Assembly (NCBI GenBank): GCA_041650615.1
Contig: JBAZKU010000001.1
Span: forward strand, 386,360-450,359
Length of the DNA: 64,000 bases
Direction: 5' to 3'
From: Minisyncoccota bacterium
Lineage (GTDB): Bacteria; Patescibacteriota; Minisyncoccia; Phycocordibacterales; UBA9973
Each line of letters starts with the position of its first letter. Position 1 is the first letter of the stretch. The notes below the pieces were generated by a model, which made no database searches, was not told where the DNA came from, and was given only the letters and a program-made list of their open reading frames with translations. Shown piece by piece: positions 763 through 53,702 of this stretch. The position numbers and the translations under genes are program-made.

Positions 763-1055
763 AAATTATATTTTAATATCCCCAAGAATATCCTGTCGCT
801 CCACAATTTCTATCAATAGAATTTAATGCTCCTTCCGCGGTATAACTACCCAATTCCCATCCTTTGATATTAGCATCAATAATAGCCCTACAATTTCTAG
901 GAAGACCTGTGTCTCCATAAATAATTTTTTTATTAGGATCACCATTAATCTTCCCTAAATAAAATGCTCCAACTATGAGGATAATTACAAAAACAATTTC
1001 TGTTATTTTTTTATTTATAATTTCGTGTTAATTAATAAATATTTTTTAATAACTG

Positions 1056-1129
1056 TCCGCCTGCTACGATTCGAACGTAGGACCCTCTAGGTATAAGCTA
1101 GATGCTCTAACCAGCTGAGCTACAGGCGG
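1056..1129 (-). tRNA. tRNA-Ile, anticodon UAU (reads AUA)
   Basis: Clean cloverleaf read by eye: acceptor CCGCCTG/CAGGCGG, D-arm TAGCTCAGCTGGTTAGAGC, anticodon stem TCTAG/CTAGA with loop CTTATAC, T-arm CTACG-TTCGAAT-CGTAG, discriminator A; CCA not encoded. Confidence 0.65.
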
Positions 1130-10943: not shown

Positions 10944-13703
10944 TTACTGCATCGAAGCATACCTAGCCATGATTTCTTTTTCCACTTCTTCGCGGTCACG
11001 ACCGTATTTTGTATAAGAAAGTTGTTTTAGACTGTCTACAATTTCCTTATTCCCCTCTTCCGGCGGTAGTGTTTTTAGATTAAAAGGTTTTGTCGGTTGA
11101 CCGTTTACCAACATACTCATATAAGCATTATAATTATCCAATTTGGTTATATCTTGAGCACTGAATGTTGGTTTGAATTTTGGCTCTAAGAAATTCGCGT
11201 CTTCCGTCCCAACGCGAAACACTGCCATTGAACCGACATTGCCAAAAACCGCATTCTTAATATTTTCCCCTAATTGAGTAATATACTGATGAGCAATATT
11301 AAGCGATAGTCTGTATTTTCTGGCCTCGGATAAAATGGAAGCGATAGAGTCGGTTGTTACGTTTTGAAATTCGTCTATGTATAGATAAAAATCATTTATC
11401 GGTTTGCCGAACATATCCACTCGGGAAAGCGCGGCCATTTGAATTTTACCTACAAGCACTAGACCAATCAAATTTGCATTAATATCGCCTAATCTGCCTT
11501 TGGAAAGATTCACCAGTAAAATTTTTTTCTCATCCATAATCTTTCTAAAGTTAAAAACCGAATTTTGTTGGAGCACCACCGGACGCATAATGTCATTGGA
11601 AATAAAATTATCAAATTTTGAAGAAATATAAGGTACAAAGTTTGCCAAGGATTGATCCCCGGTCGTTTGTTCGGCTGAAGTCCAGAACTGTTTTATAATA
11701 GGATTTTTACAGCGGGCTAATTTCAAATCACGAAATTCTTTATCTGCTAAAACTCTGGTAATCTCCAATAAAGTTGAGCCAGATTCGGGATCTTCCATAA
11801 CCAGAAAAGCACTATTGCGAAAATATTGCTCAAACATCGCCCCACCGCCGATTTTCATATCAAAAAGTTTATTAAAGATACCCATCATTTCATTTACCAC
11901 AAATGTTTTTTGCTCCGGATATTTCGGGTCATATTCCAGCATATTCAGCCCCATCGGTCGTATGGTATAAGCCGGGTCAAAATAAATCACATCATCCATG
12001 CGTTTTTTGGGGATACGGGACAAGATAGTTTGAATATCCGTCCCGTGAGGATCAATATAACAACAACCGTCGCCGTTTTTTATATCCTGCGTTATCATAT
12101 TAAGCATAATATTCGTTTTACCGGTTCCGGTTTGGCCAATAGTATAAAAATGCCTCATGCGATCTTCTCGCGACATATGAATAACAGTATCTTTTCCCCT
12201 GTAACTATTTACTCCTAGCACTATTCCCTCTTGTCCCATCTCTAACGGGGCGGGAGCAATGCCAGCTTTTGCTTCTTTTAATTGTGGCTGGCTTCCTATA
12301 CCGACAGGAAAATGAAACACGGAAGAAAGTTCTTTTAAATTCATAGGCAAAATCTTATCTCCAGAAAATGTGCGGTATGAAAAATCGTGGAAAAGTTCTT
12401 TCAACCCACTGTCGGAAATTCTCTCAAACATGAAAGAGTTGCTAGTTGATTCGGTAAATTGATTGAAAGAAGACTCTATTTCCGCCAGTATCATTAAGGC
12501 CCTTTCTTTTGTCGCAGCGGAAGCCACAACTCGAATATTTGCTTTCATGATTGTGCTTTTCATCTTATTGCCTATTTTTTCTATTGCGCCTTCATCTACC
12601 GCTTTTCTGCCTGCCACATATTTTTCCTCGGTCTTTTCTTTTTTCTTCACACCAAAAAGCAAATCTTTTGAAGCTTTCAAAAACGCCTTATTAAATTTAT
12701 AAAAATTATCCGCTGCATGTTTTACTGACATCCCTCCTTTAACATCATCTAAAATCAAATGAAATTCATCTATAAATTTCTCGCCAGCAGGAGCTATCAC
12801 CAGTTGAATGGCAGCACCTTCTCCTTTGGTTTCTAATTTCGAAAAAACATTGAGTAAAGTATTCATTGGATCGTGATCAATTTGATCATAAGTTTTTATA
12901 GGGAGAACAGAACGCTCTGAAAAATTAGCATAAGCTCCGATAGAGACACCATTCTCATTAAAAATATTATAATCATCTGTCACTTCACGGATTTTCGCAT
13001 CATGATAAAAAGCTAGAATTTGTTTCTCAAAAAGCGAGATATTTTTATTTGGTATAGCAGCATAAACTATCACCTCATCCGAGTTATTACTAAGCGCTAT
13101 TTCTAGCGTATAATAATTTTCTTTTTCATTATTTTTTCCTTCCGAGATAGATTGCATTCCTGCATAAAACTGTTCCATAGCACCGATAAATTCTTTAAAA
13201 TTTTTCTGTTTGTCGACTTCTTCCTTGGGCGGGGGAAGAGTTATTTCAAAAAGGGTCATATGAAGAGATTTAAAAAGAGGAGTCCCTTCTTTCAAATCAA
13301 ATATTTTACCTGTTTTTAAATATTGAATTAATACTCGGTGAAAATCATCATCTATGTGCGGATTCTCCATTGTTTCTACTATGGATAATGCATTTCTAAT
13401 TCCTTTAGTTATCACAATACCCAAAAGCTCTTCCATTTTACTATCATGAGTTTCGGGTTTAAGTGCAAGCACTATGCTTTCCGCTTCCTTTCTATTTATA
13501 ATGTTGTCTTTGTGGATAATTTCTTCTATAGGTTTTTCTTTATATTCTCCTATAATATCTTTCACCGCATTTTCATTCGCACGTTCAAGTTTCCCTTTGT
13601 CTATGAGTTCTTGTTCTCTTTTCGCAACATGAGCGCGCAAATAATCCAACTCTTCTTCCGGAGTTTTAAATTTTGGCGCTTCGCTCAAAAACGACTTTTC
13701 CAT
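10944..13703 (-). CDS. FtsK/HerA-superfamily P-loop ATPase, T4SS VirB4/VirD4 (TraC/TraG)-like, with a 500-aa soluble N-terminal region
   Basis: Walker A GQTGTGKT, IDPHGT, Walker B LYIDEFQN, ARKYRLSLNIAHQYITQL (T4SS ATPase RK...Q..QL motif); start set at MEKSFL (the upstream in-frame stretch is translation of a GC-rich repeat). Confidence 0.55.
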   Translation of the reverse strand: MEKSFLSEAPKFKTPEEELDYLRAHVAKREQELIDKGKLERANENAVKDIIGEYKEKPIEEIIHKDNIINRKEAESIVLALKPETHDSKMEELLGIVITKGIRNALSIVETMENPHIDDDFHRVLIQYLKTGKIFDLKEGTPLFKSLHMTLFEITLPPPKEEVDKQKNFKEFIGAMEQFYAGMQSISEGKNNEKENYYTLEIALSNNSDEVIVYAAIPNKNISLFEKQILAFYHDAKIREVTDDYNIFNENGVSIGAYANFSERSVLPIKTYDQIDHDPMNTLLNVFSKLETKGEGAAIQLVIAPAGEKFIDEFHLILDDVKGGMSVKHAADNFYKFNKAFLKASKDLLFGVKKKEKTEEKYVAGRKAVDEGAIEKIGNKMKSTIMKANIRVVASAATKERALMILAEIESSFNQFTESTSNSFMFERISDSGLKELFHDFSYRTFSGDKILPMNLKELSSVFHFPVGIGSQPQLKEAKAGIAPAPLEMGQEGIVLGVNSYRGKDTVIHMSREDRMRHFYTIGQTGTGKTNIMLNMITQDIKNGDGCCYIDPHGTDIQTILSRIPKKRMDDVIYFDPAYTIRPMGLNMLEYDPKYPEQKTFVVNEMMGIFNKLFDMKIGGGAMFEQYFRNSAFLVMEDPESGSTLLEITRVLADKEFRDLKLARCKNPIIKQFWTSAEQTTGDQSLANFVPYISSKFDNFISNDIMRPVVLQQNSVFNFRKIMDEKKILLVNLSKGRLGDINANLIGLVLVGKIQMAALSRVDMFGKPINDFYLYIDEFQNVTTDSIASILSEARKYRLSLNIAHQYITQLGENIKNAVFGNVGSMAVFRVGTEDANFLEPKFKPTFSAQDITKLDNYNAYMSMLVNGQPTKPFNLKTLPPEEGNKEIVDSLKQLSYTKYGRDREEVEKEIMARYASMQ

Positions 13704-13748
13704 AATTATAATTATAACATTAATTTTAAAAATTCGTCGAAGGTGTAG

Positions 13749-13866
13749 TTTTTTCGAGACATTGCGCAGGAGCTTAGAAAATAAAGAAGGTAATCCGACT
13801 ATTATTTTCTTGAGCGACGAGCATAGCAATCCGCAAGCTTGCGGATATGCGTGTCGAGAAAAAATT
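13749..13866. repeat. GC-rich repeat family 5, copy Y (ATTGCGCAGG ... GACGAGCATAGCAA with a 44-nt internal insert; CCGCAAGCTTGCGG palindrome)
   Basis: Shares CATTGCGCAGG and GACGAGC-GAGCATAG blocks with 48632-48660. Confidence 0.45.
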
Positions 13867-13882
13867 ATACCGAGAAAGAATT

Positions 13883-14650
13883 TTAAATCTGTGTCAATAT
13901 CTCCGGTTCGCCATCAGTAATCAAAATAGTGTGTTCAAAATGCGCGCTTTTTTTGCCATCGGCGGTGTGGAAAGTGTATCCATCTTTATCCAAAATCACG
14001 TTTTTTGTCCCATTATTCAACATTGGCTCTATGGCTATAACCATACCAGGTACAAGTTTTGCCCCTGTGCCAGCTTTCCCAAAATTTGGAATATAAGGAT
14101 CTTCATGTATGGCGCGTCCGACGCCGTGCCCGGATAAAACCTCTACAATGCCGTATCTATGCGGACGAACAAAACTTTCTATGCTATTGCTTATGTCTCC
14201 TACTCTGTATCCCGCTTGGGCTGCTCTAATACCCATCATCAAAGCTTTTTCAGTGATTTCTATAAGTTTTGCAGAAGAAGCACTGACTTCGCCCACAGGT
14301 ACAGTAATAGCCATATCAGTAAAAAGTCCGTTATGTTTCAATCCTAAATCCAAAGAAACAATATCGCCTTCTTTTAAAATTTTATTTTTATTTGGAATGC
14401 CATGAACCACTTCATCATTAACAGAAACACATAAAGAAGCCGGGTATGGGAAATCCGCCCCTTCCGGACGATAGTTTAAAAACGCCGGTTCATCATCCAT
14501 ATCTTTTATTAATTTTTCTACATATTTATCCAATTCCCAAGTGGAAATTCCCGGTTTTACTATTTCTTTAACCTTATATAAAACAGTAGCCAATCTTTTG
14601 CCTCCTTCTCGCAATATTTTTATTTCTTCCGGGGTTTTGATTATTATCAT
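13883..14650 (-). CDS. map: methionine aminopeptidase type I
   Basis: Typical Map fold motifs (metal ligands within GHGVGRAIHE and HFEHT). Confidence 0.88.
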   Translation of the reverse strand: MIIIKTPEEIKILREGGKRLATVLYKVKEIVKPGISTWELDKYVEKLIKDMDDEPAFLNYRPEGADFPYPASLCVSVNDEVVHGIPNKNKILKEGDIVSLDLGLKHNGLFTDMAITVPVGEVSASSAKLIEITEKALMMGIRAAQAGYRVGDISNSIESFVRPHRYGIVEVLSGHGVGRAIHEDPYIPNFGKAGTGAKLVPGMVIAIEPMLNNGTKNVILDKDGYTFHTADGKKSAHFEHTILITDGEPEILTQI

Positions 14651-15327
14651 TTTATTACCGTTCCTAAAAACTTCTCGCCATTTAAACACTTGGCTAAATT
14701 ATCAATCGGCTTGCCATTCATTATTACCACCTCTATTCCCTCTTTTTCCGCCATTTCCGAAGCAATGGGGTCAAATGGCGAATTAAGACCCGGATTCCAG
14801 TCTTTTGGAATTAATTTCCTATATTCTGCCCAAGAAATTTTTTCAATTTTTTGGGCGCTTCCATTTATTTTTGGGTCAGAATCATATACATAATCCGTAT
14901 TGGATAAATTAATTATTTTCTTAGCGCCTAATGTTTTTGCTCCCTCAACCGCGTCCCAATCTGTACTGCGTCCGGGACCAAAAGCTGCCCCAATAATTAT
15001 CGGTTTATCAAAAGATAATTTCTCGGATAAATTAAGAATGACCTTTGGATGGGCATATTCGCCAAAGATAACTCTCAGTAATTCGGCATTTAATTTTAAA
15101 GAGGCTATCCCTATCCAATCCAAATCTTCATCGGAAGGATTAGTAAGTTCTTTGGCAACATCTTGATATTTTCTGCAAATTTTTCCACCACCGGTTATAA
15201 TTACAAATTTCTTGCCTTTGGCAACATGGGAAAGAATCAGAGATTTAAAATCCTTTAAAAAATTCAAGTCTAAATTTTCTGGGATAATAAGCGAACCACC
15301 AAGTGAAATTACTATCGTTTCTTCCAT
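14647..15327 (-). CDS. amino-acid-kinase family protein, likely short (archaeal-type) UMP kinase
   Basis: ISLGGSLI, IITGGG, GAAFGPGRSTD; 226 aa; sits between adk and map. Confidence 0.5.
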   Translation of the reverse strand: MEETIVISLGGSLIIPENLDLNFLKDFKSLILSHVAKGKKFVIITGGGKICRKYQDVAKELTNPSDEDLDWIGIASLKLNAELLRVIFGEYAHPKVILNLSEKLSFDKPIIIGAAFGPGRSTDWDAVEGAKTLGAKKIINLSNTDYVYDSDPKINGSAQKIEKISWAEYRKLIPKDWNPGLNSPFDPIASEMAEKEGIEVVIMNGKPIDNLAKCLNGEKFLGTVIK

Positions 15328-26081: not shown

Positions 26082-26543
26082 CTAAAGCATCTTTACATCA
26101 ATATCCACTCCTGAAGGAAGAGATAGGTTAGTAAGCGCCTCAACTGTTTTTGGATTTGGATTTATAATATCAATTAATCTTTTGTGAACTCTTATTTCAA
26201 ATTGTTCTCGAGTATTTTTGTAAATAAAAGATGCGCGATTAACTGTGTATTTTTTAATTTCGGTCGGCAATGGTACTGGTCCGATTATTTCCGCATCATA
26301 ACGCATAGCCGTGTCTATAATTTGTTTGACCGAGCTATCAAGAATTTTACTTTCATACGCTCGTACACGTATGCGAAGTATTACTTTACTTTCTTCTCCG
26401 CTCACTCGGGCTGATTTCTTTTCTTTAAGAGGAGAAATCTTCTTTCCGTCTGAGGAGGATCCGCCCTTAGCGGAAACTTTTTTCACCTTCTCTTTATCAG
26501 TCAAGATTTTTGGCTTTTTTGTTTTTGTTTCTTTAGTTGCCAT
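26082..26543 (-). CDS. rpsJ: 30S ribosomal protein S10; the annotated 50-aa N-terminal extension is doubtful
   Basis: Core S10 begins near SKVILRIRVRAYESKILD; the extension contains the family-4 hairpin 26460-26475, so the true start may be the downstream in-frame GTG (V of VSGEES), about 20 nt 3' of the hairpin. Confidence 0.8.
   Translation of the reverse strand: MATKETKTKKPKILTDKEKVKKVSAKGGSSSDGKKISPLKEKKSARVSGEESKVILRIRVRAYESKILDSSVKQIIDTAMRYDAEIIGPVPLPTEIKKYTVNRASFIYKNTREQFEIRVHKRLIDIINPNPKTVEALTNLSLPSGVDIDVKML
26460..26475. repeat. GC hairpin motif TCCGCCCTTAGCGGAA (family 4), tuf-rpsJ junction
   Basis: 15/16 identity to the 7173 and 21155 copies. Confidence 0.5.
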
Positions 26544-26560: not shown

Positions 26561-27751
26561 TTAACCCAGAATTTTTGTAACCACCCCTGCGCCAACAGTC
26601 TTACCTCCTTCACGAATAGCAAATTTTTGCGTTTCCTCAAGTGCAACTGGAGTAACTAGTTTAACTGTAATCTTTACTGTGTCTCCAGGCATAACCATTT
26701 CTACTCCTTCAGCCAAAGTAACATCACCGGTAACATCCGTTGTACGAATATAGAATTGAGGTTTATAACCTTTAAAAAATGGAGTATGACGTCCACCTTC
26801 TTCTTTTTTCAAAACATATATCTCGCAGGTAAAATGATCATGAGGAGTAACCGTACCCGGTTTTGCAAGAACTTGTCCGCGAGTAACATCTTCCTTCTTG
26901 AGTCCGCGAAGCAAAACTCCGGCATTATCTCCAGCCATACCTTCTTTAAGACTTTTGTTGAACATTTCAATACCGGTAACAACAGACTTTTGAGTAGGCT
27001 TGATTCCGACGATTTCTATTTCCTCGTCAACTTTTATTACTCCCCTTTCAATTTTTCCGGTAACAACCGTACCACGACCTTCAATGGAAAAGATATCTTC
27101 AACTGGCATAAGGAAAGGTTTGGATGTATCTCGCACTGGAATTGGAATATAAGTATCAAGAGCGTTGGTAAGTTCAAGAATCTTTTTTGCCCATTCATCG
27201 TCAAGAGATTTTGATTCAAGAGCCTTAAGAGCTGAACCTCTAATTATCGGGCAATCTTTGTCAAAACCTTGTTTAACGAGAAGTTCACGAATTTCTTCCT
27301 CTACCAAATCAATCATTTCTTTATCATCAACCATATCACACTTGTTTAAGAAAACGATTATTTTTGGCACACCCACTTGTTTTGCAAGCAGAACATGTTC
27401 GCGAGTCTGAGGCATAGCGCCATCACTTGCCGCAACTACCAAAATAGCACCGTCCATTTGAGCGGCACCAGTAATCATATTCTTAATGTAGTCAGCGTGT
27501 CCGGGAGCATCAATGTGCGCATAGTGACGGGCATCTGTAGCATATTCATTGTGGGAAATATTAATAGTGATTCCACGAGCTTTTTCTTCCGGAGCATTAT
27601 CAATCTGATCAACGCCACGAAGTCTGACTGTTTTACCAGCCATATTAAGCACATGTAATATTGCCGCAGTTAAAGTAGTTTTTCCATGGTCAACGTGACC
27701 GATGGTGCCAACATTTATATGCGGTTTATCTCTTTTAAATTCTTCTGCCAT
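26561..27751 (-). CDS. tuf: elongation factor Tu
   Basis: [25 protein letters not shown]. Confidence 0.95.
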
Positions 27752-27916
27752 ATTCTTATGATTAATGGTTAAAACTTAACATACGAGAACCAGTTGCTAA
27801 GGCTTAATCACTAATAAAATTAAACTAATAATAAAAAATGCAATAGAAAAACTGCAAAAGTGCAGTTGTTAGTATAGTAGCAAATTGATAAAAAATGTCA
27901 AATCCCCTAAAACTAC

Positions 27917-27953
27917 AAAACCCCTGGCAATATTACCAGGGGGTTTCTTTTGT
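27917..27953. terminator. rho-independent terminator hairpin CCCCTGG-N9-CCAGGGG with U-rich flanks
   Basis: Immediately 3' of the minus-strand 27960 gene, before tuf. Confidence 0.6.
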
Positions 27954-27959
27954 TTATTC

Positions 27960-28814
27960 TCAACCAACTACCGTACTCTCGTAAGGATTATCAAAATTAT
28001 TAATCCTGAAAGTTTTCTTGTATTCCATCAAAAGATTAAGACCTTTTGAAGACAGCAGAGATTTCTCACTCTTCTTTTCTATCTCCATAAATTTTTCAAG
28101 GGATATTCTTTCTGGGTTTCCATCAACCCCCCTCTTTTTCCAGAAATTTAATTCGGTCCCAAGTATTATGCTCAACAAAATAGCAGTATAATCACTACCC
28201 TCTCTACCGATAGTAGAAAGAAGTCCGTTAACACTTTTTCCAATGAAACCTTGAGTAATAATTAACCGGTTCTCTTGAATTAAATTTCCAGTAAAAATAC
28301 TTTTTATTCCCTGTTCTGTTTCTGAAAAAAGTACTTCCGCATCAATAGAATTTTCACTCGTAACCATAAAATCACGAGCGTCTACCAATTTGTTTTTCAA
28401 ACCTTTACAGTCAAGATAACAGTTAACAATCACTGAGCTTGCCAATTCCCCTAATGGAACAATTTTCCCGTAAATGGAATCGTATGGTTTATTCTTATAT
28501 TTATCAATATCAAATATAAAAAGCTTACCGATTTCATTGGAAATTTCACGATAATACTCTACGGAGAAAAGTTCTCTTACAATATTCATGTGGAAATCAT
28601 ATACTTCATGCCAAGCCTTTTTTGCCTCTAACTGTTTACCTTCATAAAGACACAGTGCCAAAAACTCCAGCATATTTGTTACCTTATCCATAGCAGAGAC
28701 AACAACTATTGTTGGTTCTTTCATGTACTGTTGGACTCGAGAAAGAAAGGTTTTAATAGAAAGAACATCTCTTATTGATGCCCCTCCGACTTTAACGACG
28801 ACGTTGACTTCCAT
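27960..28814 (-). CDS. aspartokinase-like amino-acid kinase catalytic domain (no ACT domains)
   Basis: VVKVGGASI, VVVSAMDKVTNML, GREGSDYTA (aspartokinase motifs); only 284 aa. Confidence 0.55.
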   Translation of the reverse strand: MEVNVVVKVGGASIRDVLSIKTFLSRVQQYMKEPTIVVVSAMDKVTNMLEFLALCLYEGKQLEAKKAWHEVYDFHMNIVRELFSVEYYREISNEIGKLFIFDIDKYKNKPYDSIYGKIVPLGELASSVIVNCYLDCKGLKNKLVDARDFMVTSENSIDAEVLFSETEQGIKSIFTGNLIQENRLIITQGFIGKSVNGLLSTIGREGSDYTAILLSIILGTELNFWKKRGVDGNPERISLEKFMEIEKKSEKSLLSSKGLNLLMEYKKTFRINNFDNPYESTVVG

Positions 28815-28900
28815 AAGAAGTTTCCTTTCAATAAGTTTATATCAAAAAACAGCTTTTTCTGTATTCTAACAACAAAATTCCTTTTATCAAATATGTAAAT

Positions 28901-29248
28901 TTACCTTAAAGGGTTCTCAACCTCCATTAGAGTAAATCTCGCCATTATTTCAAATTCATGCGCTTTTCTGAGAGAATCTTCTTGTTCTAGGTCATTATTC
29001 TTTTTCTTTTGAAATTCTCTAACAACCTCTAATAATCCTAGAGTCCTCAAACGTTTCATAACTTCGGGAGTATCTAATTCTAAATATTTATCCTGTCTTT
29101 CCGGCGGATGAGGACCATTGTAATCGCCTAAATCCGTTAGTATTTTACGATATAAATCTTTCTTTTCTTCTAAAGATAATTCCAGTGGAATTTTTCTCTT
29201 TTCACCAACTCCTATTTCAGGAGAATTATTTAATTCATCAAAACTCAT
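28901..29248 (-). CDS. hypothetical protein (115 aa, acidic)
   Basis: ORF only; between fusA and the aspartokinase-like gene. Confidence 0.4.
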   Translation of the reverse strand: MSFDELNNSPEIGVGEKRKIPLELSLEEKKDLYRKILTDLGDYNGPHPPERQDKYLELDTPEVMKRLRTLGLLEVVREFQKKKNNDLEQEDSLRKAHEFEIMARFTLMEVENPLR

Positions 29249-29265
29249 AGAGTAATTATAAACCT

Positions 29266-31416
29266 TTATTTTCTCGCTGCAATAATAGTTTCTGCCACAT
29301 TGTTCGGAACAATGTCATATCGCAAGAATTCCATCGTAAATGATGCTCGTCCTTCGGTCATAGAACGAAGTCCAGTCATGTATCCGAACATTTCAGAAAG
29401 AGGCACAACTGCGCGGAGCGTTTTGTTCATTCCCCTGTCTTCCATTCCTTCTATAATTCCACGCTTGGAAGAAATATTGCCGGTGATATCTCCCATGAAT
29501 TTTTCCGGAGTAACAACTTCCACTTTCATCATTGGTTCCAAAATCACCGGCTTTGCGCTTCGGCAAGCATCTTGCACCGCCATAGAAGCGGCAATTTTGA
29601 AAGCCATTTCATTTGAGTCAACTTCATGATAACTTCCATCCCAGAGCTCTACGGAAACATTTACCATTTTAAATCCGGCAAGCACTCCGCGGTCTAAACC
29701 TTCTCTAAAACCTTTCTCGCAAGGCGCAATATATTCTTGCGGAATGACCCCTCCTTTAATGGTATTAATGAACTCAAATCCATTTGCTCTTTTTGTATTT
29801 TTAGGCAAATCTTCTATTTCTTCTTTGGAAAGCGGAACCATAGGTTTAACTTTGATTTTAACGTGACCATAGTTTCCTCGTCCGCCAGATTGCTTGATGT
29901 ATTTACCCTCCGCTTCTGAAGTTCCCGTAATTGTCTCACGATAAGCCACTTGCGGTTTCCCAACATTAGCCTCAACGGTAAATTCCCTTTTCATGCGATC
30001 TACAATAATTTCAAGATGTAATTCTCCCATACCGGCAATAATCGTCTCTCCCGTTTCTTGGTCGGTAGAAACCTTAAAGGTAGGATCTTCTTGCGCCAAA
30101 CGATTAAGCGCCATCCCCATTTTTTCCTGGTCGGCTTTTGTTTTCGGTTCAATACGTAATTGAATAACCGGTTCAGGGAAAATTATTCTATCCAGTTCAA
30201 TAGGATGTTCTTCCTCGCAAATAGTATCGGAAGTAATGGTATCTTTCAGTCCCACTGCTGCCGCAATCTCTCCGGCAAAAACTTTTTTTACTTCTTCACG
30301 ATCATTGGCATGCATACGCAATATTCTGCCGATACGTTCTTTGTTTCTGGTTCTAGGATTATAGACATAAGAGCCGGCAACCAAAGTTCCGGAGTAAACT
30401 CTGAAGAAAATAAGCTGTCCGACGAAAGGATCTGTTGCCACTTTAAAAGCGAGAGCGGAAAAAGGTTCTGTATCCGAAGCGTGTCTAAAAATAATTTCAT
30501 CATTATTATCCGGATCTGTTCCTTCCACGGGAGGAATATCCAGAGGAGAAGGAAGATAATCCACCACACCATCAAGCACCAACTGGACACCTTTATTTTT
30601 CAGAGCAGACCCAGCGTAAACCGGAAAAATTTCGTTGGTTATAACCCCTTTTCTCAAAAGTCTTTTCAGGGTATCCATATCCGGACTTTTTCCTTCCAAG
30701 TAATCATTCATCACTGCATCATCTTGTTCTACAATTTTTTCAATAAGTTCATGATGATATTTTTCTGCTTCTGGTTTTAAATTTTCTGGAATTTCTTTTT
30801 CAACTACCCTATTTCCCATTTCTCCTTCAAAATAAAAAGCTTTCATGGCAAGTAAATCCACTACTCCTTCGTGTTTTTCTTCCAGTCCAATAGGTATTTG
30901 CATACGAACAGCTTTTTTAGTCAGACGGTCTAAGATTGTGGCAAAAGAATGTTCAAAAGAGGCACCAGTTCTGTCTAATTTGTTAATAAAACAAATACGA
31001 GGAACCTTAGCTTCATCCGCATAACGCCAATTCGTTTCTGATTGAGGTTCTACTCCTGCCACTCCATCAAAAACAACCACAGCCCCGTCCAACACACGGA
31101 GAGATCTTTTTACTTCAGCTGTAAAATCAATATGCCCGGGCGTATCAATAATATTAAAACGATGCTTTTTATTTTTATCACCCTTAGCATAGATTGGAGT
31201 CCAAAAACATGTAACAGCTGCAGAGGTGATAGTGATGCCTCGTTCTCTTTCTTGTTCCATCCAATCGGTTACAGTTTCACCATCATGCACTTCTCCTATT
31301 TTATGAGACATTCCAGTATAAAAAAGTACGCGTTCTGTCGTGGTTGTTTTCCCCGCATCAATATGCGCGATAATTCCAATATTTCTAACCTTTTCCAGTG
31401 GGTAATCTCGTTCCAT
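29266..31416 (-). CDS. fusA: elongation factor G
   Basis: [20 protein letters not shown], complete 5-domain length. Confidence 0.95.
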
Positions 31417-31425
31417 ATATTTAAA

Positions 31426-31896
31426 TTACCAGGCAAAATGAGCAAAAGCTTTGTTGGCTTCAGCCATTTTATGAATATCTTCTTTCTTTTTAATAGCCGA
31501 GCCTTCATTTTTAGAAGCGGCAATCAATTCGTCGGCAAGTTTTAAATGCATCGGACGTCCTTTGTTTTTACGAGCAGCATCACGAATCCATCGCATAGCT
31601 AGAGCAAGACGGCGTTCCGGTCGGACTTCTCTCGGCACTTGATAGTTTGCCCCTCCGATACGCTTAGAACGTACTTCGGTCAGAGGACCGGCATTTTTCA
31701 TAGCTAAATCAAAAATTTCAAGAGGATTTGGATTACCTGTTTTTTCCTTTATTATATCAAAAGCTTGATACATTACTTTTCTGGCAGTTTCTTTTTTACC
31801 ATTCCACATAATGTAATTGATGAATTTCTCCAATTTTTGAGAATTGTAAATAAAATCCGGCTTGACTATATTTCTGTTGTTTATTTTACGTCGCAT
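31426..31896 (-). CDS. rpsG: 30S ribosomal protein S7
   Basis: sequence family plus order. Confidence 0.92.
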   Translation of the reverse strand: MRRKINNRNIVKPDFIYNSQKLEKFINYIMWNGKKETARKVMYQAFDIIKEKTGNPNPLEIFDLAMKNAGPLTEVRSKRIGGANYQVPREVRPERRLALAMRWIRDAARKNKGRPMHLKLADELIAASKNEGSAIKKKEDIHKMAEANKAFAHFAW

Positions 31897-31902
31897 AATT
31901 TT

Positions 31903-32325
31903 TTATTTTTTTACTTCTTTTGGTCGTTTATTACCATAAAGAGACCTGCCTTGTCTGCGTTTTTCAACTCCTTGCGTATCTAAAACTCCGCGTACGATAT
32001 GATATCTAACTCCAATTAAATCTTTCACGCGTCCTCCGCGAAGCATTACTACAGAGTGTTCCTGTAAATTATGTCCTTCTCCTGGAATGTAAGCCGTAAC
32101 TTCCATACCATTAGTTAGACGCACTCTGGCAATCTTTCGAAGAGCTGAGTTTGGTTTTTTGGGAGTAGTGGTTGAAACTTTAGTGCAAACACCGCGCTTG
32201 AAAGGAGCCGGAAAAAAGACTGGTCTATTTTTCAAAACGTTAAATCCTCGCGCCAAAGCTACCGTTTTTGATTTCGGGTGAGCTTTTACTCTTTTTCTTT
32301 TAATTAATTGATTGATTGTAGGCAT
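31903..32325 (-). CDS. rpsL: 30S ribosomal protein S12
   Basis: [12 protein letters not shown]..., [10 protein letters not shown]. Confidence 0.95.
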
Positions 32326-42515: not shown

Positions 42516-43853
42516 CTATTGAATGACTCTCGGTGTAACAAAAACTACCAATTCCGTATCTTCTTGCGATTTTTTCAAACCGCCGAATACGGTGCTCCCA
42601 AGAGCCGGTATAGACGAAAGTCCAGGAATCCCATCCGCGTTATCTTGCTTACTCTGCATTAAAAGTCCACCAATGGCAATTGTTTTGCCATTTTCGACTC
42701 TAATAGTTGTCGTTTCCGACCTACGAGCAGTACTGGGAAGATTCTGAGAGCTGCCATTGTTCTCAAATTTTCTTTCCCCGATGATATCGGAGATTTCATG
42801 GTTGAGAACTATTCTCAACATTCCATCGCGAGAAATAAAAGGTTTGACCTTCATTTTGATGCCTGTTTCCACTTCTTTTGTAGTGAAATAGTTATAAAAG
42901 GCACCACCCCCAGAAAGAATTAAGTATAAGTCTTCCTGGGTTATTTTGATCTCCCCTTCACTTCCGTCTTCTACCACTATCCGCGGTTCAGCAATTATGT
43001 TCATCTTGGCTTCATAGCCATTGGCTTTTAATAAATTGCTTAATTGCCCAGTGAGATTTCCCACAAAAATACCGGGGACTTCTTTTTTGAACTCTCCTGT
43101 TCCTAGTGCGCCGAGGTTAATATCCCCCCATTGCATTCCAAGATTAGTCCCCTTGCTCCATTGAAATAAAACAAATCGCACCGAAACTTCAATTTGTCGT
43201 TTTGTTTTATCAATTATAGCAATAACCTTCTCCAATTCATCCAGTACGTCCGATGGTCCAGTTAAAGTTAGACTGTTCCCGGTTTTTGAAGGAGACATAT
43301 ACTGTTTATAATATTCCGAAATTTGATCCACTACTTTTATGGCTTCCTGATTAGTTGTGATAACTCTTGTACTGGAAAGTTGGCCAAAATTCAAATTTTC
43401 TGGGATAGCTTTTCCTACTATATAATAACCTTCCATACAGCGAAAATTAAATCCGCCGACAGAAAGAACCTGAGTAAGAGCAGCCTCCAAAGGGGTATTA
43501 ATAAAGGAAACAGAAATCGTTCCTTGAACCGATTCATCAACAATGATATTGGTTTTCGTCTGTGTAGCAATATCTAATAAAACTTCTTTTATATCAGATC
43601 CGGTGAAAACATTTGTGACTTTGGGCTGAGACTTCAGCCGTTCGTTTCTCTTTTTTTTGATTTCCGAATATTTTTCTTCCGCTTTTTTGGCTTCAGCTGA
43701 TTCAAGCTCTTGAATTTGCTTTGTGGTCAACGTTGGCTGAGACTTGATCGGAAGCATTTTTGGAAGCGCTTCCGGTTTGGTAAGATTGCTTGAGCAACCC
43801 ACCAAAAGAGTGATAGTTGAAAAAATTAACAAACCCATAAATAGGTTTTTCAT
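42516..43853 (-). CDS. secretin-family outer-membrane channel lipoprotein (short PilQ/GspD/RcpA-like)
   Basis: Lipobox LVGCSS; C-terminal secretin motif TIAIGGLLMQSKQDNADGIPGLSSIPALGSTVFG...ELVVFVTPRVIQ. Confidence 0.7.
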   Translation of the reverse strand: MKNLFMGLLIFSTITLLVGCSSNLTKPEALPKMLPIKSQPTLTTKQIQELESAEAKKAEEKYSEIKKKRNERLKSQPKVTNVFTGSDIKEVLLDIATQTKTNIIVDESVQGTISVSFINTPLEAALTQVLSVGGFNFRCMEGYYIVGKAIPENLNFGQLSSTRVITTNQEAIKVVDQISEYYKQYMSPSKTGNSLTLTGPSDVLDELEKVIAIIDKTKRQIEVSVRFVLFQWSKGTNLGMQWGDINLGALGTGEFKKEVPGIFVGNLTGQLSNLLKANGYEAKMNIIAEPRIVVEDGSEGEIKITQEDLYLILSGGGAFYNYFTTKEVETGIKMKVKPFISRDGMLRIVLNHEISDIIGERKFENNGSSQNLPSTARRSETTTIRVENGKTIAIGGLLMQSKQDNADGIPGLSSIPALGSTVFGGLKKSQEDTELVVFVTPRVIQ

Positions 43854-52084: not shown

Positions 52085-52633
52085 TTATGAAGGAATTAAG
52101 CTTAGGCTAAATTTAATGTTGGATCCCTGTATAAAATTGGAAATTGGCAAGTCAACTTTTGAAAAAGCTATGTCGTCTTCAAGTGTTTGACGAAATAAAA
52201 GCAAAATTTCACGATTTGGCGCTATCCCGCCAATGTCTATTTTTTTGCCTGTTTGTGAATTATTTTGGTAAGCAATTCTTGTAATTTTAATATTCGGCAT
52301 TTTTTTTAATATAATTTCATTTATCACTTTCTGGGAAAAGATCAATTTGTTTTTTTGAGTATTTTCAATTAAGTCCAACTTATTTTTTAAATCATTAACA
52401 ACTGCCAATGTACTTTGATCAAGAGGGGTGACAGGGTTGCTTGTTTGTAATTCTAACCTTGCGTTAACGGTATTTTCTTCCACAGAAGAAAGAAAATATG
52501 ATGGTAAAATAGCGACGGAAGCGATTAAGAAAGATATTCCCAGCATAATAAAAATAATAGAGGCAAGCCTGAGATAAAAATCTCTAGACATTTTTTTCTT
52601 ATCTTCATTTGGAATTAAATTAATCATGTTCAA
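52085..52633 (-). CDS. pilN: type IV pilus assembly protein PilN
   Basis: INLIPNEDKKK (INLLP hallmark), TM, about 180 aa. Confidence 0.7.
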   Translation of the reverse strand: MNMINLIPNEDKKKMSRDFYLRLASIIFIMLGISFLIASVAILPSYFLSSVEENTVNARLELQTSNPVTPLDQSTLAVVNDLKNKLDLIENTQKNKLIFSQKVINEIILKKMPNIKITRIAYQNNSQTGKKIDIGGIAPNREILLLFRQTLEDDIAFSKVDLPISNFIQGSNIKFSLSLIPS

Positions 52634-53702
52634 AATCTCTTAAAGCAAGCCCTAAGGTGGTAGCAAATGCCAATGATTGATTAAAATTTATTTCCGGAAT
52701 ATATTTCCCCGTATCTCCGATATTTATCCAAACATCGGCCATTTCCACTCTTGTTTTTGTACTGACAGAAAAATACTCGGAAAGTCCTATTAAATTAGAA
52801 TCCCCTCCGCAAAGAATTATTTTTTTAATCGGAGGTCTGTCTTTCCCCTCTTCGTCTTTATGAGTATGCCAATATAAAAAATGTTTTACTATTTCATCAC
52901 GCAAAACAGAAACACCGTTTAAAAGTATGGTAGATACTTCGGGATTAGAAGCGTCACGTTTTAAGCCACACTCTTTCTTCTTTTTTTCCGCTTCCTCAAA
53001 ACTTATCTTTAAATTTTTCTCAATTATATTGGTAAGCATGACCCCTCCCATATCTAAAGTGGAAGTAAAAATGACAATACCGCCGGACACAATAAAAATA
53101 CCGGTGCGTTTTTTACCAAAATCTACTATCATATAAGTTTCCAAATCACCTTTTTTAATAACGGCCCTAACAATAGCCTGCGCTTCAAGTTCAAACGACT
53201 TGGCAGATATTTTGGAATTCTTAAAAATAGACAGGTATTCTTCAATTACATTTTTGGGAATAGCGGCTACTTGTAGTTTTAAACTTTGTTCGTCTTCGCT
53301 CAATAATTCATAATCAAATATGGTATCTTGCGCTGAGATTGGTATATATTCTTCAAGAGAAAGTTCTATCGCTTCTCTGACATTTTCTAATCCTAATTTT
53401 TCCAGTTTAAGATTAAAAAGATAGACCTGCTCTTCTGGTAAAGAAACCCGAACAGATTTCAGTCCTTCTTCATTCCGAAGCGATATTAAAATTTCTTCCA
53501 TTTTTTTGGGGTCTTTAATTTTACCAGATTCAATGATTCCTGACGGTATTTTTTTCTCTCCATAACGATTCACCTTAATGCTATTTCCTGTTTTAATAAG
53601 TTCCACAAATTTTATGGATTCATCTGAAATGTCCAAGCCAAAAGACGGCAACACTAGAAATTTCGGCGTTGGGAAAAATCTCTTAAAAAAATTTCTAAAC
53701 AT
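52620..53702 (-). CDS. pilM: type IV pilus assembly ATPase-fold protein PilM (FtsA/actin-like)
   Basis: FGLDISDESIKFVEL, actin-fold length; leaderless-type start. Confidence 0.8.
   Translation of the reverse strand: MFRNFFKRFFPTPKFLVLPSFGLDISDESIKFVELIKTGNSIKVNRYGEKKIPSGIIESGKIKDPKKMEEILISLRNEEGLKSVRVSLPEEQVYLFNLKLEKLGLENVREAIELSLEEYIPISAQDTIFDYELLSEDEQSLKLQVAAIPKNVIEEYLSIFKNSKISAKSFELEAQAIVRAVIKKGDLETYMIVDFGKKRTGIFIVSGGIVIFTSTLDMGGVMLTNIIEKNLKISFEEAEKKKKECGLKRDASNPEVSTILLNGVSVLRDEIVKHFLYWHTHKDEEGKDRPPIKKIILCGGDSNLIGLSEYFSVSTKTRVEMADVWINIGDTGKYIPEINFNQSLAFATTLGLALRDFEHD

What the first reader, a model, noticed from the sequence alone, without database searches (positions are those of the whole stretch)
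27960..29248. Two non-ribosomal genes inserted between fusA and tuf in the str operon
rpsL-rpsG-fusA-tuf is almost universally contiguous. Here fusA is followed by a 115-aa acidic hypothetical protein and a 284-aa aspartokinase-like catalytic domain (VVKVGGASI, VVVSAMDKV, GREGSDYTA) without ACT regulatory domains. The latter has its own terminator (27917-27953) before tuf. An amino-acid-kinase fold with no regulatory domains, in an organism type that usually lacks lysine/threonine biosynthesis, suggests a repurposed kinase co-expressed with the translation factors. A second amino-acid-kinase-like gene (14647-15327, pyrH-like) sits between adk and map in the same superoperon.
Basis: partly seen in the sequence, partly recalled or inferred. 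Interest (0 to 1): 0.55.

Follow-up and report, generated by a model that had tools for sequence, protein, structure and literature searches.

The report
Regulator-less aspartokinase cassette between fusA and tuf
Between the genes for elongation factors G and Tu, this tiny-genome bacterium (Candidatus Paceibacterota) carries a self-contained gene for a stripped-down aspartate kinase plus a small orphan gene; they are the remains of a variable metabolic island, not a new translation-linked kinase.

Summary
On the minus strand the order is rpsL-rpsG-fusA-ORF115-ORF284-tuf-rpsJ.

ORF284 is the complete catalytic domain of a class-I (LysC-type) aspartokinase and has no ACT domains. The AF2 model has pLDDT 95.5, and its TM-score to E. 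coli AKIII is 0.81-0.86. All catalytic and aspartate-contacting residues are conserved. The ATP-binding C-lobe is remodelled: WKDVPG has become WKKRG, a roughly 10-aa hairpin is deleted, and HPKT is lost.

ORF284 belongs to a small monophyletic clade of ACT-less aspartokinases that I found only in Parcubacteria/Paceibacterota. Other members of the clade sit in dapB-dapA-asd-AK and pyrD-asd-AK clusters, so the ancestral function is ordinary aspartate phosphorylation.

In relatives the fusA-tuf gap is a mosaic island holding different combinations of pyrCDEF, a small protein and the AK. The AK has its own promoter-like site and a terminator conserved by compensatory changes. tuf has its own conserved promoter and leader.

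The gene evolves fast (dN/dS 0.27, against 0.02-0.12 for its neighbours). It carries a nonsense allele in a 99.9%-identical strain and is absent from one relative.

Most likely it is a feedback-free aspartokinase under relaxed selection, possibly losing function. The "pyrH-like" gene is an ordinary archaeal-type UMP kinase. Interest is modest.

The parts
29266..31416 (-). fusA (EF-G, 716 aa), upstream boundary of the island
   Evidence: ORF list. It is 92-95% identical to FusA of related loci.
28901..29248 (-). ORF115, a small helical orphan protein (public name 'hypothetical protein WC447_02225'). It lies 17 nt after the fusA stop, with no terminator predicted in between.
   Evidence: Three homologues appeared in the word-indexed search (P0121-P0123). 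A 39%-identical homologue sits upstream of pyrD-asd-AK in L101, and a 69%-identical one sits between pyrF and tuf in L098. There are no Pfam, NCBIfam, PADLOC or PDB matches. The AF2 model is unusable (pLDDT 46).
28863..28890 (-). Promoter-like site (TTGATA, 16 nt, TG-TAGAAT) in the 86-bp spacer upstream of ORF284
   Evidence: Consensus scan. The spacers upstream of the AK genes in L001, L003 and L009 also contain a TTGACA hexamer; I judged the matching -10-like hexamers by eye, not with the scan. This is a consensus match only, not proof of function.
27960..28814 (-). ORF284, an ACT-less aspartokinase catalytic domain (NCBI MFA5095452.1, annotated 'hypothetical protein WC447_02220')
   Evidence: Conserved residues, with E. 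coli AKIII equivalents in brackets: K8 (K8), A41 (A40), T46 (T45), E123 (E119), F190 (F184), R204 (R198), S207 (S201), D208 (D202). The C-lobe (residues 225-284) is remodelled.
28448..28448 (-). Polymorphic site. G>T on the minus strand turns codon 123 from GAA (Glu, the aspartate alpha-amino ligand) into TAA in contig L005, which is otherwise 99.94% identical.
   Evidence: One search found 3 SNPs in 4888 bp. The JGI gene calls there are split into 122 aa and 135 aa.
27911..27942 (-). Intrinsic-terminator-like hairpin plus T-run that ends the ORF284 transcription unit
   Evidence: Read off the alignment: an equivalent hairpin follows the AK in L001 (same stem), in L009 (CCCCGTAG..CTACGGGG, i.e. 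compensatory changes) and in L003 (a different 13-bp stem).
27874..27901 (-). tuf promoter-like site (TTGACA, 16 nt, TG-TACTAT)
   Evidence: The TTGACA and TGCTAyTAT elements are conserved in all six aligned loci, whatever gene lies upstream.
27762..27867 (-). Conserved tuf leader. Hairpin 1 (27867-27850, AACTGCAC...TGCAGTT followed by U5) is nearly invariant (6 of 7 pairs identical in all six loci). Hairpin 2 (about 27814-27762) has 21 pairs.
   Evidence: Alignment and RNAalifold; 5 pairs of hairpin 2 show compensatory changes. No Rfam family matches.
26561..27751 (-). tuf (EF-Tu, 396 aa), downstream boundary of the island; rpsJ and the S10 cluster follow
   Evidence: It is 89-97% identical to Tuf of related loci.
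14647..15327 (-). The second AAK-fold gene named in the finding: archaeal-type UMP kinase (pyrH) between adk and map
   Evidence: Pfam AA_kinase over the full length of the model. TIGR02076 pyrH_arch scores 171.9 bits against a cutoff of 158.

Best explanation
ORF284 is a single-domain aspartokinase with no feedback regulation. It keeps the whole amino-acid-kinase catalytic fold of a LysC-type enzyme and has lost both ACT regulatory domains.

It belongs to a small monophyletic clade that I found only in Parcubacteria/Paceibacterota. The nearest full-length relatives of the clade are Bacteroidota aspartokinases.

Proposed mechanism. L-aspartate binds in the N-lobe pocket, with E123 holding the alpha-amino group and R204 the alpha-carboxylate, plus contacts from A41, T46, F190 and S207. 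K8 and D208 catalyse transfer of a phosphoryl group to the beta-carboxylate from a donor held by a pared-down C-lobe. With no ACT domains there is no lysine or threonine feedback. In relatives the product, beta-aspartyl phosphate, feeds Asd and then DapA/DapB, that is diaminopimelate for the cell wall.

Genomic setting. The gene is an autonomous cassette, with its own promoter-like site and terminator. It lies in a variable metabolic island (pyrCDEF, a small X/ORF115 protein, AK) lodged between fusA and the separate tuf promoter. The window shows a reduced form of this island, with pyrCDEF lost.

State of the gene in this lineage. Selection is relaxed and the ATP-binding lobe has been trimmed, so activity may be weak, altered or on the way out.

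Shown here: homology, fold, residue conservation, clade membership, gene neighbourhoods in relatives, transcription signals, and evolutionary rates.

Inferred, not shown: kinase activity, the identity of the phosphoryl donor, and the presence of asd and dap genes elsewhere in this genome.
For: Family and fold:
- Pfam AA_kinase, and all 23 NCBIfam hits are aspartokinases covering only the catalytic half.
- The best PDB sequence hits are aspartokinases 2cdq and 2j0w.
- The AF2 model has pLDDT 95.5 and pTM 0.93. Foldseek TM-scores to E. coli AKIII, Arabidopsis AK and M. jannaschii AK are 0.81-0.86 normalised to the query, so the C-lobe superposes too.

Active site:
- The residues that the literature names as catalytic (K8, D202) and as aspartate-binding (E119, R198; contacts A40, T45, F184, S201) are all conserved (PMC4142519; PMC5481828). 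In the seven closest sequences they do not vary where those sequences cover them.

Clade:
- NJ bootstrap support is 98% for the CPR ACT-less clade and 100% for the derived subfamily.
- Only about 7 representatives at 50% identity score above canonical AKs among 1.84 billion proteins.

Pathway context in the clade:
- L016 carries dapB-dapA-asd-AK with spacers of 2-18 bp.
- L101-L103 carry pyrD-asd-AK.

Position:
- The AK lies between fusA and tuf in L001, L003, L009, L010-L013 and the P0005 contig. Tuf is 89-97% and FusA 90-95% identical to the window in the four loci with DNA.

Selection:
- The derived C-lobe motif FWK(K/M)RGVxGNP..IS..EF..IE is conserved within the subfamily, with invariant W225, K226, R228 and G229.
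- GC3 equals that of the neighbours, so the gene is a long-term resident.

Transcription signals.
Against: ATP-binding lobe:
- Pfam aligns only HMM positions 3-174 of 234.
- WKDVPG has become WKKRG. By my recollection of the AKIII-ADP complex, this removes the Asp equivalent to D222, a nucleotide ligand.
- The DPR residues, which bind nucleotide in the M. jannaschii enzyme (PMC4142519), have become NPE.
- About 10 residues are deleted. By fold topology, as I infer it, they correspond to the beta12-beta13 hairpin that helps bind ATP in the NAGK paradigm (PMC2851564).
- GLVHPKTL has become SLLSSKGL.

Missing partners: tblastn finds no asd, dapA or dapB (and no pyrC-F) anywhere in the 64-kb window. 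The rest of the 598-kb contig could not be read.

Signs of relaxed constraint:
- The gene evolves 2-14 times faster than its neighbours by dN/dS. It is 56% identical where Tuf is 97% and ThyA 91%.
- A nonsense allele (E123*) exists in a 99.94%-identical strain.
- The gene is absent between ORF115 and tuf in L098.
- More distant subfamily members (P0007, P0126, P0127) have altered core motifs: GREGSD has become (Q/K)RE(Y/D)SD, and GEL has become GED.
Confidence: 0.5

Rival explanations
1. A decaying or already inactive relic. The aspartokinase lost its pathway partners, and perhaps its ATP binding, during genome reduction. It now persists as a pseudoenzyme or a gene on its way to deletion.
For: - dN/dS is 0.27 against 0.02-0.12 for nine neighbouring genes.
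- Identity to positional orthologues is 33-56%, where Tuf is 92-97% identical.
- An E123* nonsense allele accounts for one of only three SNPs in 4.9 kb of L005.
- The AK is missing in L098, and pyrCDEF are missing in the window, so the island is eroding piecemeal.
- The nucleotide-binding hairpin and motifs are lost.
- No asd or dap genes lie within 64 kb.
Against: - dN/dS is clearly below 1, and the C-lobe is as constrained as the N-lobe.
- Intact ORFs of 279-289 aa exist in at least 10 divergent sequences.
- All catalytic and substrate-binding residues are conserved in the core group, and the new C-lobe motif is itself conserved.
- The promoter-like site is retained, and the terminator is kept through compensatory changes.
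- The single nonsense allele could be a rare variant or an assembly error.
Confidence: 0.3
2. Neofunctionalised aspartate-binding protein tied to the pyrimidine genes of the island. Examples would be an aspartate sensor or regulator, a kinase acting on an aspartate derivative, or a kinase using a phosphoryl donor other than ATP.
For: - The AK recurs next to pyrimidine genes in four lineages: fusA-pyrC-pyrD-pyrE-pyrF-X-AK-tuf in L009 and L010-L013, fusA-AK-Lyase_1-pyrCDEF-tuf in the P0005 contig, and pyrD-asd-AK in L101.
- Aspartate is the precursor of the pyrimidine ring.
- The C-lobe has been rebuilt with an invariant Arg and Lys where the nucleotide loop used to be.
Against: - The AK and the pyr genes are lost independently. 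The window, L001 and L003 keep the AK without pyr genes in the gap. L098 keeps pyrD, pyrE and pyrF without the AK.
- The glutamate that binds the free alpha-amino group is conserved, which argues against an N-carbamoyl substrate.
- Adjacency to asd in two lineages points to the ordinary reaction.
- No pyr gene lies in the window.
Confidence: 0.12
3. One reading: a kinase repurposed for a translation-related role and co-expressed with EF-G and EF-Tu.
For: - The gene lies between fusA and tuf in several genomes.
- No terminator is predicted between fusA, ORF115 and ORF284, so read-through from the str promoter is possible.
- In L014 a clade member sits 6 bp upstream of a release-factor gene.
Against: - The gene has its own promoter-like site, and its terminator separates it from tuf, which has its own conserved promoter and leader.
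- The same slot holds pyrimidine-biosynthesis genes in relatives, so the slot is a permissive insertion site, not a functional operon.
- Presence is variable and a nonsense allele exists.
- In genomes of about 0.6 Mb that are rich in translation genes, such adjacency is expected by chance (my inference).
Confidence: 0.04

Closest known systems
Class-I monofunctional aspartokinases (E. coli LysC/AKIII, PDB 2J0W/2J0X; Arabidopsis AK 2CDQ; M. jannaschii AK 3C1M)
   Same: Same AAK catalytic fold, with TM-scores of 0.81-0.86. Same catalytic Lys and Asp, and the same aspartate-binding residues.
   Different: ORF284 has no ACT1 or ACT2 domains, so it lacks lysine/threonine feedback and the ACT-mediated dimer interface. 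Its nucleotide-binding C-lobe is shortened and its motifs are replaced. Sequence identity is only 21-23%.
Bacteroidota aspartokinases (about 416-430 aa; e.g. P0016, P0078)
   Same: They are the nearest full-length relatives, at 34-36% identity to ORF284 and 36-43% to clade member P0273. They share the GREGSDYTA, ITQGF(I/V/L)G and WK motifs.
   Different: They keep both ACT domains and the canonical WKDVPGVLNADP(K/R)...GA(T/S)VIHPKT nucleotide elements.
Other Parcubacteria ACT-less aspartokinases of the same clade (P0272 in dapB-dapA-asd-AK; P0130 in pyrD-asd-AK; P0273 'Aspartokinase [Parcubacteria group bacterium GW2011_GWF2_38_8]' in fusA-pyrCDEF-X-AK-tuf)
   Same: Same single-domain architecture of 296-318 aa and the same clade, with 98% bootstrap support. 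P0273 occupies the same chromosomal slot.
   Different: These proteins keep WKDVPG, the hairpin (..NPxxPGxExAK..) and GLVHPKTL. ORF284 and its subfamily have lost or replaced all three. Identity to ORF284 is 33-35%.
Short archaeal aspartokinase-like proteins (NCBIfam TIGR02078 'putative Pyrococcus aspartate kinase subunit', 327 positions; NF006234 PRK08373, 338 positions)
   Same: They are also aspartokinase homologues much shorter than the canonical ~450 aa.
   Different: ORF284 scores 67 and 85 bits against cutoffs of 242 and 237, so it is not a member. This is an independent shortening.
UMP kinase and isopentenyl phosphate kinase
   Same: Same AAK superfamily fold.
   Different: Structural similarity is much weaker, with TM-scores of 0.47-0.57. 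ORF284 has no NCBIfam hit to either family. The genuine UMP kinase of this genome is the separate gene at 14647-15327.

Membership tests
Aspartokinase (EC 2.7.2.4), amino-acid-kinase superfamily PF00696 | AAK alpha/beta/alpha sandwich with an N-lobe and a C-lobe | tested here: met
   Pfam PF00696 scores 43.1 bits against a cutoff of 24.9. The AF2 model has pLDDT 95.5. Foldseek TM-scores to AK structures are 0.81-0.86, normalised to the query.
Aspartokinase (EC 2.7.2.4), amino-acid-kinase superfamily PF00696 | Catalytic Lys (E. coli AKIII K8) and Asp (D202) | tested here: met
   K8 and D208 are invariant across the subfamily and the reference AKs. Their roles are taken from PMC4142519.
Aspartokinase (EC 2.7.2.4), amino-acid-kinase superfamily PF00696 | Aspartate-binding residues: E119 and R198, plus contacts A40, T45, F184 and S201 | tested here: met
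   E123, R204, A41, T46, F190 and S207 are all present and invariant in the subfamily. Their roles are taken from PMC4142519 and PMC5481828.
Aspartokinase (EC 2.7.2.4), amino-acid-kinase superfamily PF00696 | Canonical nucleotide-binding elements of the C-lobe: the W(T/K)DVxG loop, the DP(R/K) hairpin and GAxV(I/L)HP | tested here: not met
   The loop is WKKRG, the DP(R/K) motif is NPE, there is a ~10-aa deletion, and the last element reads SLLSSKGL. Pfam aligns only HMM positions 3-174 of 234. Some of these elements also vary in presumably functional clade members: WKNVPG in P0274, and NPN in P0272.
Aspartokinase (EC 2.7.2.4), amino-acid-kinase superfamily PF00696 | C-terminal ACT regulatory domains | tested here: not met
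   The protein ends at residue 284, straight after the last strand of the catalytic domain. NCBIfam matches stop at model position ~220 of ~450. The alignment with 416-451-aa AKs shows no ACT columns for it.
Aspartokinase (EC 2.7.2.4), amino-acid-kinase superfamily PF00696 | Reaches the curated NCBIfam/TIGRFAM aspartokinase cutoffs | tested here: not met
   The best hit is NF006570 at 109.7 bits against 455. TIGR00657 scores 93 bits against 208.7. Much of the shortfall comes from the missing half of the protein.
Aspartokinase (EC 2.7.2.4), amino-acid-kinase superfamily PF00696 | Works with aspartate-semialdehyde dehydrogenase and downstream dap or hom genes in the same genome | tested here: inconclusive
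Clade relatives do show dapB-dapA-asd-AK and pyrD-asd-AK.
Aspartokinase (EC 2.7.2.4), amino-acid-kinase superfamily PF00696 | ATP-dependent phosphorylation of L-aspartate | not testable with these tools
   This needs an enzyme assay or a complementation test.
   ORF284 has no pyrH or IPK model among its NCBIfam hits. Foldseek TM-scores are 0.47-0.57 for IPK and UMPK against 0.81-0.86 for AKs.
Member of the str/tuf transcription unit (co-expressed with translation factors) | No promoter or terminator separating it from tuf | tested here: not met
   A terminator-like hairpin at 27942-27921 is followed by a tuf promoter-like site at 27901-27874, and both are conserved in relatives. These are consensus and comparative evidence only; there are no RNA data. 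Read-through from fusA is not excluded.

The most novel reading that the evidence does not exclude
The derived subfamily (the window protein, P0001-P0005, P0124-P0127 and P0007) may no longer be an ATP-dependent aspartokinase. It keeps an intact aspartate and phosphoryl-transfer pocket but has a rebuilt C-lobe, with no hairpin and an invariant K-x-R-G loop. It could therefore use a different phosphoryl donor, or act as an aspartate-sensing pseudoenzyme for the metabolic island lodged in the str-tuf region of these ultra-small genomes.
Probability: 0.15. Interest if true: 0.6.

Novelty: new variant of a known kind. Interest (0 to 1): 0.33.

Why it matters
It shows how ultra-reduced Patescibacteria prune an allosteric enzyme down to its bare catalytic domain. 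In one sub-lineage even the nucleotide lobe is trimmed, which approaches a lower limit for the amino-acid-kinase fold.

It shows that one of the most conserved gene strings in bacteria, rpsL-rpsG-fusA-tuf, can hold a variable metabolic island. In this lineage tuf runs from its own promoter and a structured leader.

It corrects the public annotation ('hypothetical protein').

It tempers the assumption that these organisms have no aspartate-pathway enzymes, because relatives carry dapB-dapA-asd-AK.

A naturally feedback-free minimal aspartokinase could interest lysine and threonine pathway engineers, but only if it proves active.

None of this overturns current understanding.

Tried and rejected
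- **GTDB genome scan.** I scanned the genome collection with the ACT-less clade profile. It only confirmed that Bacteroidota AKs are the nearest full-length relatives.
- **Metagenome-contig scans.** I ran two, one with the C-lobe motif profile and one with the whole protein. Neither gave a confirmed hit.
- **ORF115 versus the X proteins.** I asked whether ORF115 is a truncated version of the 202/207-aa 'X' protein that precedes the AK in L009 and L010. Only the first ~25-40 residues resemble each other (BLASTP E 0.03; hhalign probability 7-15%). This is unproven.
- **ORF115 structure and families.** The AF2 model has pLDDT 46, so no fold search was justified. A PDB profile search, Pfam, NCBIfam and PADLOC gave nothing.
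- **Stand-alone ACT subunit.** I suspected that the 163-aa gene next to P0007 in L099 might be one. Pfam found no ACT domain, so I rejected the idea.
- **Defence-system role.** There are no PADLOC hits for the AK, ORF115 or the X proteins.
- **Recent horizontal transfer.** I rejected this because GC3 is 30.5%, the same as the neighbours.
- **Rfam match for the tuf leader.** None was found.
- **Unavailable resources.** The primary AKIII structure paper (Kotaka 2006) is not in the held library, so the list of ADP-contacting residues rests partly on my memory and is marked as such. The AFDB fold library was unavailable.
- **Literature.** Searches for ACT-less aspartokinases, or for aspartokinase in the candidate phyla radiation, found nothing relevant.
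Full report
**Observation**

The window has about 36% GC. Exact protein matches identify it as part of a 598,563-bp contig of a Candidatus Paceibacterota MAG, with locus tags WC447_02220 and WC447_02225.

On the minus strand the gene order is:
- rpsL (31903-32325)
- rpsG (31426-31896)
- fusA (29266-31416)
- ORF115 (28901-29248)
- ORF284 (27960-28814)
- tuf (26561-27751)
- rpsJ, rplC and the rest of the S10 cluster

So two non-ribosomal genes do interrupt fusA-tuf, at the stated coordinates.

**What ORF284 is**

- Pfam places it in the amino-acid-kinase family (E 5.6e-11), but only HMM positions 3-174 of 234 align.
- All 23 NCBIfam hits are aspartokinases. The best is lysine-sensitive AK3 at 109.7 bits, aligning residues 4-224 to model positions 4-220 of 452. 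All hits fall far below their cutoffs because the C-terminal half of those models has no counterpart.
- The best PDB sequence hits are Arabidopsis AK and E. coli AKIII.
- An AlphaFold2 model built on a 105-sequence alignment is very confident (pLDDT 95.5, pTM 0.93).
- The model superposes on E. coli AKIII, Arabidopsis AK and M. jannaschii AK with TM-scores of 0.81-0.86 normalised to the query. Isopentenyl-phosphate kinases and UMP kinases reach only 0.47-0.57.

ORF284 is therefore a complete class-I aspartokinase catalytic domain (N-lobe plus C-lobe) with no ACT domains.

**Active site**

The literature names K8 and D202 of E. coli AKIII as catalytic. [quoted passage not shown] It lists A40, T45, E119, F184 and S201 as direct aspartate contacts (PMC5481828).

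The equivalents in ORF284 are K8, D208, E123, R204, A41, T46, F190 and S207. All are present, and in the seven closest sequences they do not vary where those sequences cover them.

The C-lobe, which forms the nucleotide pocket in this family (PMC4142519; PMC2851564), is remodelled:
- WKDVPG has become WKKRG.
- The DP(R/K) residues, which bind nucleotide in the M. jannaschii enzyme, have become NPE.
- About 10 residues after that motif are deleted. By fold topology, as I infer it, these correspond to the beta12-beta13 hairpin that helps bind ATP in NAGK.
- GLVHPKTL has become SLLSSKGL.

Two points soften this. The new motif, FWK(K/M)RGVxGNP..IS..EF..IE, is itself conserved in the subfamily, with invariant W225, K226, R228 and G229. 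Several of the 'lost' ligands also vary in clade members that sit in intact pathway operons, for example WKNVPG in P0274 and NPN in P0272. Loss of ATP binding is therefore possible but not demonstrated.

**Relatives and phylogeny**

- Among 5.8 billion proteins, only about eight short homologues (283-346 aa) stand out above Bacteroidota aspartokinases of about 420 aa.
- A profile search of 1.84 billion representatives gives about seven subfamily representatives above the canonical AK scores, plus scattered ACT-less AKs of about 300 aa.
- A second search seeded with those found a handful more. One is 'Aspartokinase [Parcubacteria group bacterium GW2011_GWF2_38_8]'.
- Neighbour-joining on 296 columns supports three groupings: all the ACT-less sequences I assign to this Parcubacteria/Paceibacterota clade (98% of 200 bootstraps), the derived subfamily containing ORF284 (100%), and that subfamily plus P0006 (100%). 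The clade nests among Bacteroidota AKs. This is a simple distance method, so long-branch effects are possible.
- The taxonomic label rests on only two named members. Most members are unnamed metagenome contigs, so calling the clade specific to this phylum is an inference.

**Gene neighbourhoods**

| Locus | Arrangement |
|---|---|
| L016 (P0272) | dapB-dapA-asd-AK, spacers of 2-18 bp |
| L101-L103 (P0130) | ORF115 homologue-pyrD-asd-AK |
| L014 (P0274) | AK followed 6 bp later by a release-factor gene |
| L010-L013 (P0273) | rpsL-rpsG-fusA-pyrC-pyrD-pyrE-pyrF-X207-AK-148aa-tuf-rpsJ |
| L009 (P0051) | fusA-pyrC-pyrD-pyrE-pyrF-X202-AK-tuf |
| P0005 contig | fusA-AK-Lyase_1-pyrC-pyrD-pyrE-pyrF-sigma-tuf (Pfam gene calls only; no DNA held) |
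| L001/L002 (P0004), L003 (P0006) | fusA-AK-tuf |
| L098 | pyrD-pyrE-pyrF-ORF115 homologue-tuf, with no AK |

Tuf is 89-97% and FusA 90-95% identical to the window in L001, L003, L009 and L010, so these are close relatives.

The fusA-tuf gap in this lineage is therefore a mosaic island whose modules (pyrCDEF, a small X/ORF115 protein, the AK, and extras) are kept or lost independently. The window shows a reduced state.

The two asd adjacencies indicate that the ancestral job of the clade is the ordinary one, making beta-aspartyl phosphate for aspartate semialdehyde and diaminopimelate.

**Transcription signals**

- A strong terminator-like hairpin lies 18 nt after the ORF284 stop, at 27942-27921.
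- The alignment shows a hairpin at the same place after the AK in L001, in L009 (with compensatory stem changes) and in L003 (a different stem).
- Downstream lies TTGACA-16-TG-TACTAT (27901-27874). This element is conserved in all six aligned loci, whatever gene precedes it.
- A conserved leader with two hairpins follows. The second hairpin has five compensatory pairs.
- The 86-bp spacer upstream of ORF284 carries TTGATA-16-TG-TAGAAT. The AK upstream spacers of L001, L003 and L009 also contain TTGACA; I judged their -10-like hexamers by eye.

ORF284 thus looks like an autonomous cassette, and tuf like the first gene of its own unit. No terminator is predicted between fusA, ORF115 and ORF284, so read-through from the str promoter cannot be excluded. 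All of this is consensus and comparative evidence, not RNA data.

**Evolutionary state**

Protein identity between the window and L001:

| Protein | Identity |
|---|---|
| Tuf | 97% |
| FusA | 93% |
| ThyA | 91% |
| DEAD helicase | 90% |
| M50 peptidase | 84% |
| DHFR | 70% |
| AK (ORF284) | 56% |

- Nei-Gojobori dN/dS is 0.27 for the AK, against 0.02-0.12 for nine neighbours. dN is 0.34 in the N-lobe and 0.30 in the C-lobe. dS is about 1, near saturation, so these values are rough.
- Contig L005 differs from the window at 3 of 4888 positions. One of the three turns codon 123, the aspartate-binding Glu, into TAA.
- GC3 equals that of the neighbours, so this is not a recent transfer.
- tblastn finds no asd, dapA, dapB or pyrC-F in the 64-kb window. 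The rest of the genome could not be read with the available tools.

**Interpretation**

The best-supported reading (about 0.5) is a feedback-free, single-domain aspartokinase of a Parcubacteria-specific clade. It sits as a self-contained cassette in a decaying metabolic island. It is still under purifying selection, but the selection is relaxed and the nucleotide lobe is trimmed.

The main rival (about 0.3) is that in this sub-lineage the protein is already inactive or being lost.

A neofunctionalised aspartate-binding protein, linked to pyrimidine genes or using an alternative phosphoryl donor, is possible (about 0.12). A translation-linked role is unlikely (about 0.04).

**ORF115**

ORF115 is a real but uncharacterised small protein family.
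- Homologues are 67-72% identical in close relatives.
- A 39%-identical homologue lies next to pyrD-asd-AK in L101.
- It has no match in Pfam, NCBIfam, PADLOC or PDB, and the structure model is unusable.
- It occupies the slot of the X202/X207 proteins, but homology to them is unproven.

**The second AAK-fold gene**

The gene at 14647-15327 is an archaeal-type UMP kinase that scores above the curated cutoff. It is an ordinary nucleotide kinase next to adk.

**Verdict**

The finding is a new variant of a known enzyme kind, in an unusual but explicable genomic position. Interest is modest.

Noticed in passing
window 27762-27901 (minus strand); also L001, L003, L009, L010, L098 upstream of tuf: The promoter and ~115-nt leader of tuf are conserved in all six loci. 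Hairpin 1 (AACTGCAC..TGCAGTT followed by U5) is nearly invariant and sits right after the putative start site, so it looks like an attenuator. Hairpin 2 has 21 pairs, five of them with compensatory changes, and lies just before the start codon. Different GC-rich mini-hairpins are inserted between the two hairpins in different genomes. No Rfam family matches. It may be an unrecognised cis-regulatory leader for the tuf-S10 unit.
   Followed up: partly
window 28448; L005 position 2952: In a JGI contig (sample 3300037067) that is 99.94% identical to the window, one of three SNPs turns Glu123 of the aspartokinase into a stop codon. This is either a natural knockout allele or an assembly error.
   Followed up: partly
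P0001 (Logan contig of 1232 bp): This homologue is identical to ORF284 over its first 166 residues and much more divergent over the rest (overall identity 83%). That suggests either recombination between divergent alleles or a chimeric assembly.
   Followed up: no
window 26082-26543: Ribosomal protein S10 is 153 aa long and has a Lys/Ser-rich N-terminal extension of roughly 50 residues (MATKETKTKKPKILTDKEKVKKVSAKGG...) ahead of the usual S10 domain. Related loci call S10 at 140-149 aa.
   Followed up: no
window 1055-1129: There is a tRNA-Ile with anticodon UAU (called by ARAGORN and matched by Rfam tRNA). This is an uncommon bacterial way of reading AUA that does not need lysidine modification.
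   Followed up: no
window 10944-13829: A 961-aa protein with weak matches to TraG/VirD4-type coupling-protein domains follows map directly on the same strand. This is where I would expect infA-rpmJ-rpsM-rpsK-rpoA from the usual bacterial gene order. ndk (with an internal insertion), an RNase J-like beta-CASP protein and a LOG-family protein come next.
   Followed up: no
window 14647-15327: The UMP kinase is of the archaeal type (TIGR02076), not the bacterial type, and it sits between adk and map at the end of the spc cluster.
   Followed up: yes
L101 2237-3596, L102 308-1667: A reverse-transcriptase gene (RVT_1) and a divergently oriented bAvd gene, as in diversity-generating retroelements, lie immediately upstream of the ORF115 homologue-pyrD-asd-AK cluster in a related contig.
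   Followed up: no
P0005 contig (JGI 3300075153; Pfam gene calls only, no DNA held): A Lyase_1-family gene (the fumarase/aspartase/adenylosuccinate-lyase type) sits between the AK and pyrC-pyrD-pyrE-pyrF. If it is an aspartase, it could supply fumarate to a fumarate-dependent class-1A dihydroorotate dehydrogenase. This is untested speculation.
   Followed up: no
L001 5757-7784: fusA in this 337-kb relative is called as three ORFs (82, 107 and 439 aa). I suspect indel errors in the assembly rather than a real pseudogene, but I did not check.
   Followed up: no
window 42516-43853 and 52620-53702: The window carries a secretin (PilQ/GspD-like) gene and a PilM gene.
   Followed up: no
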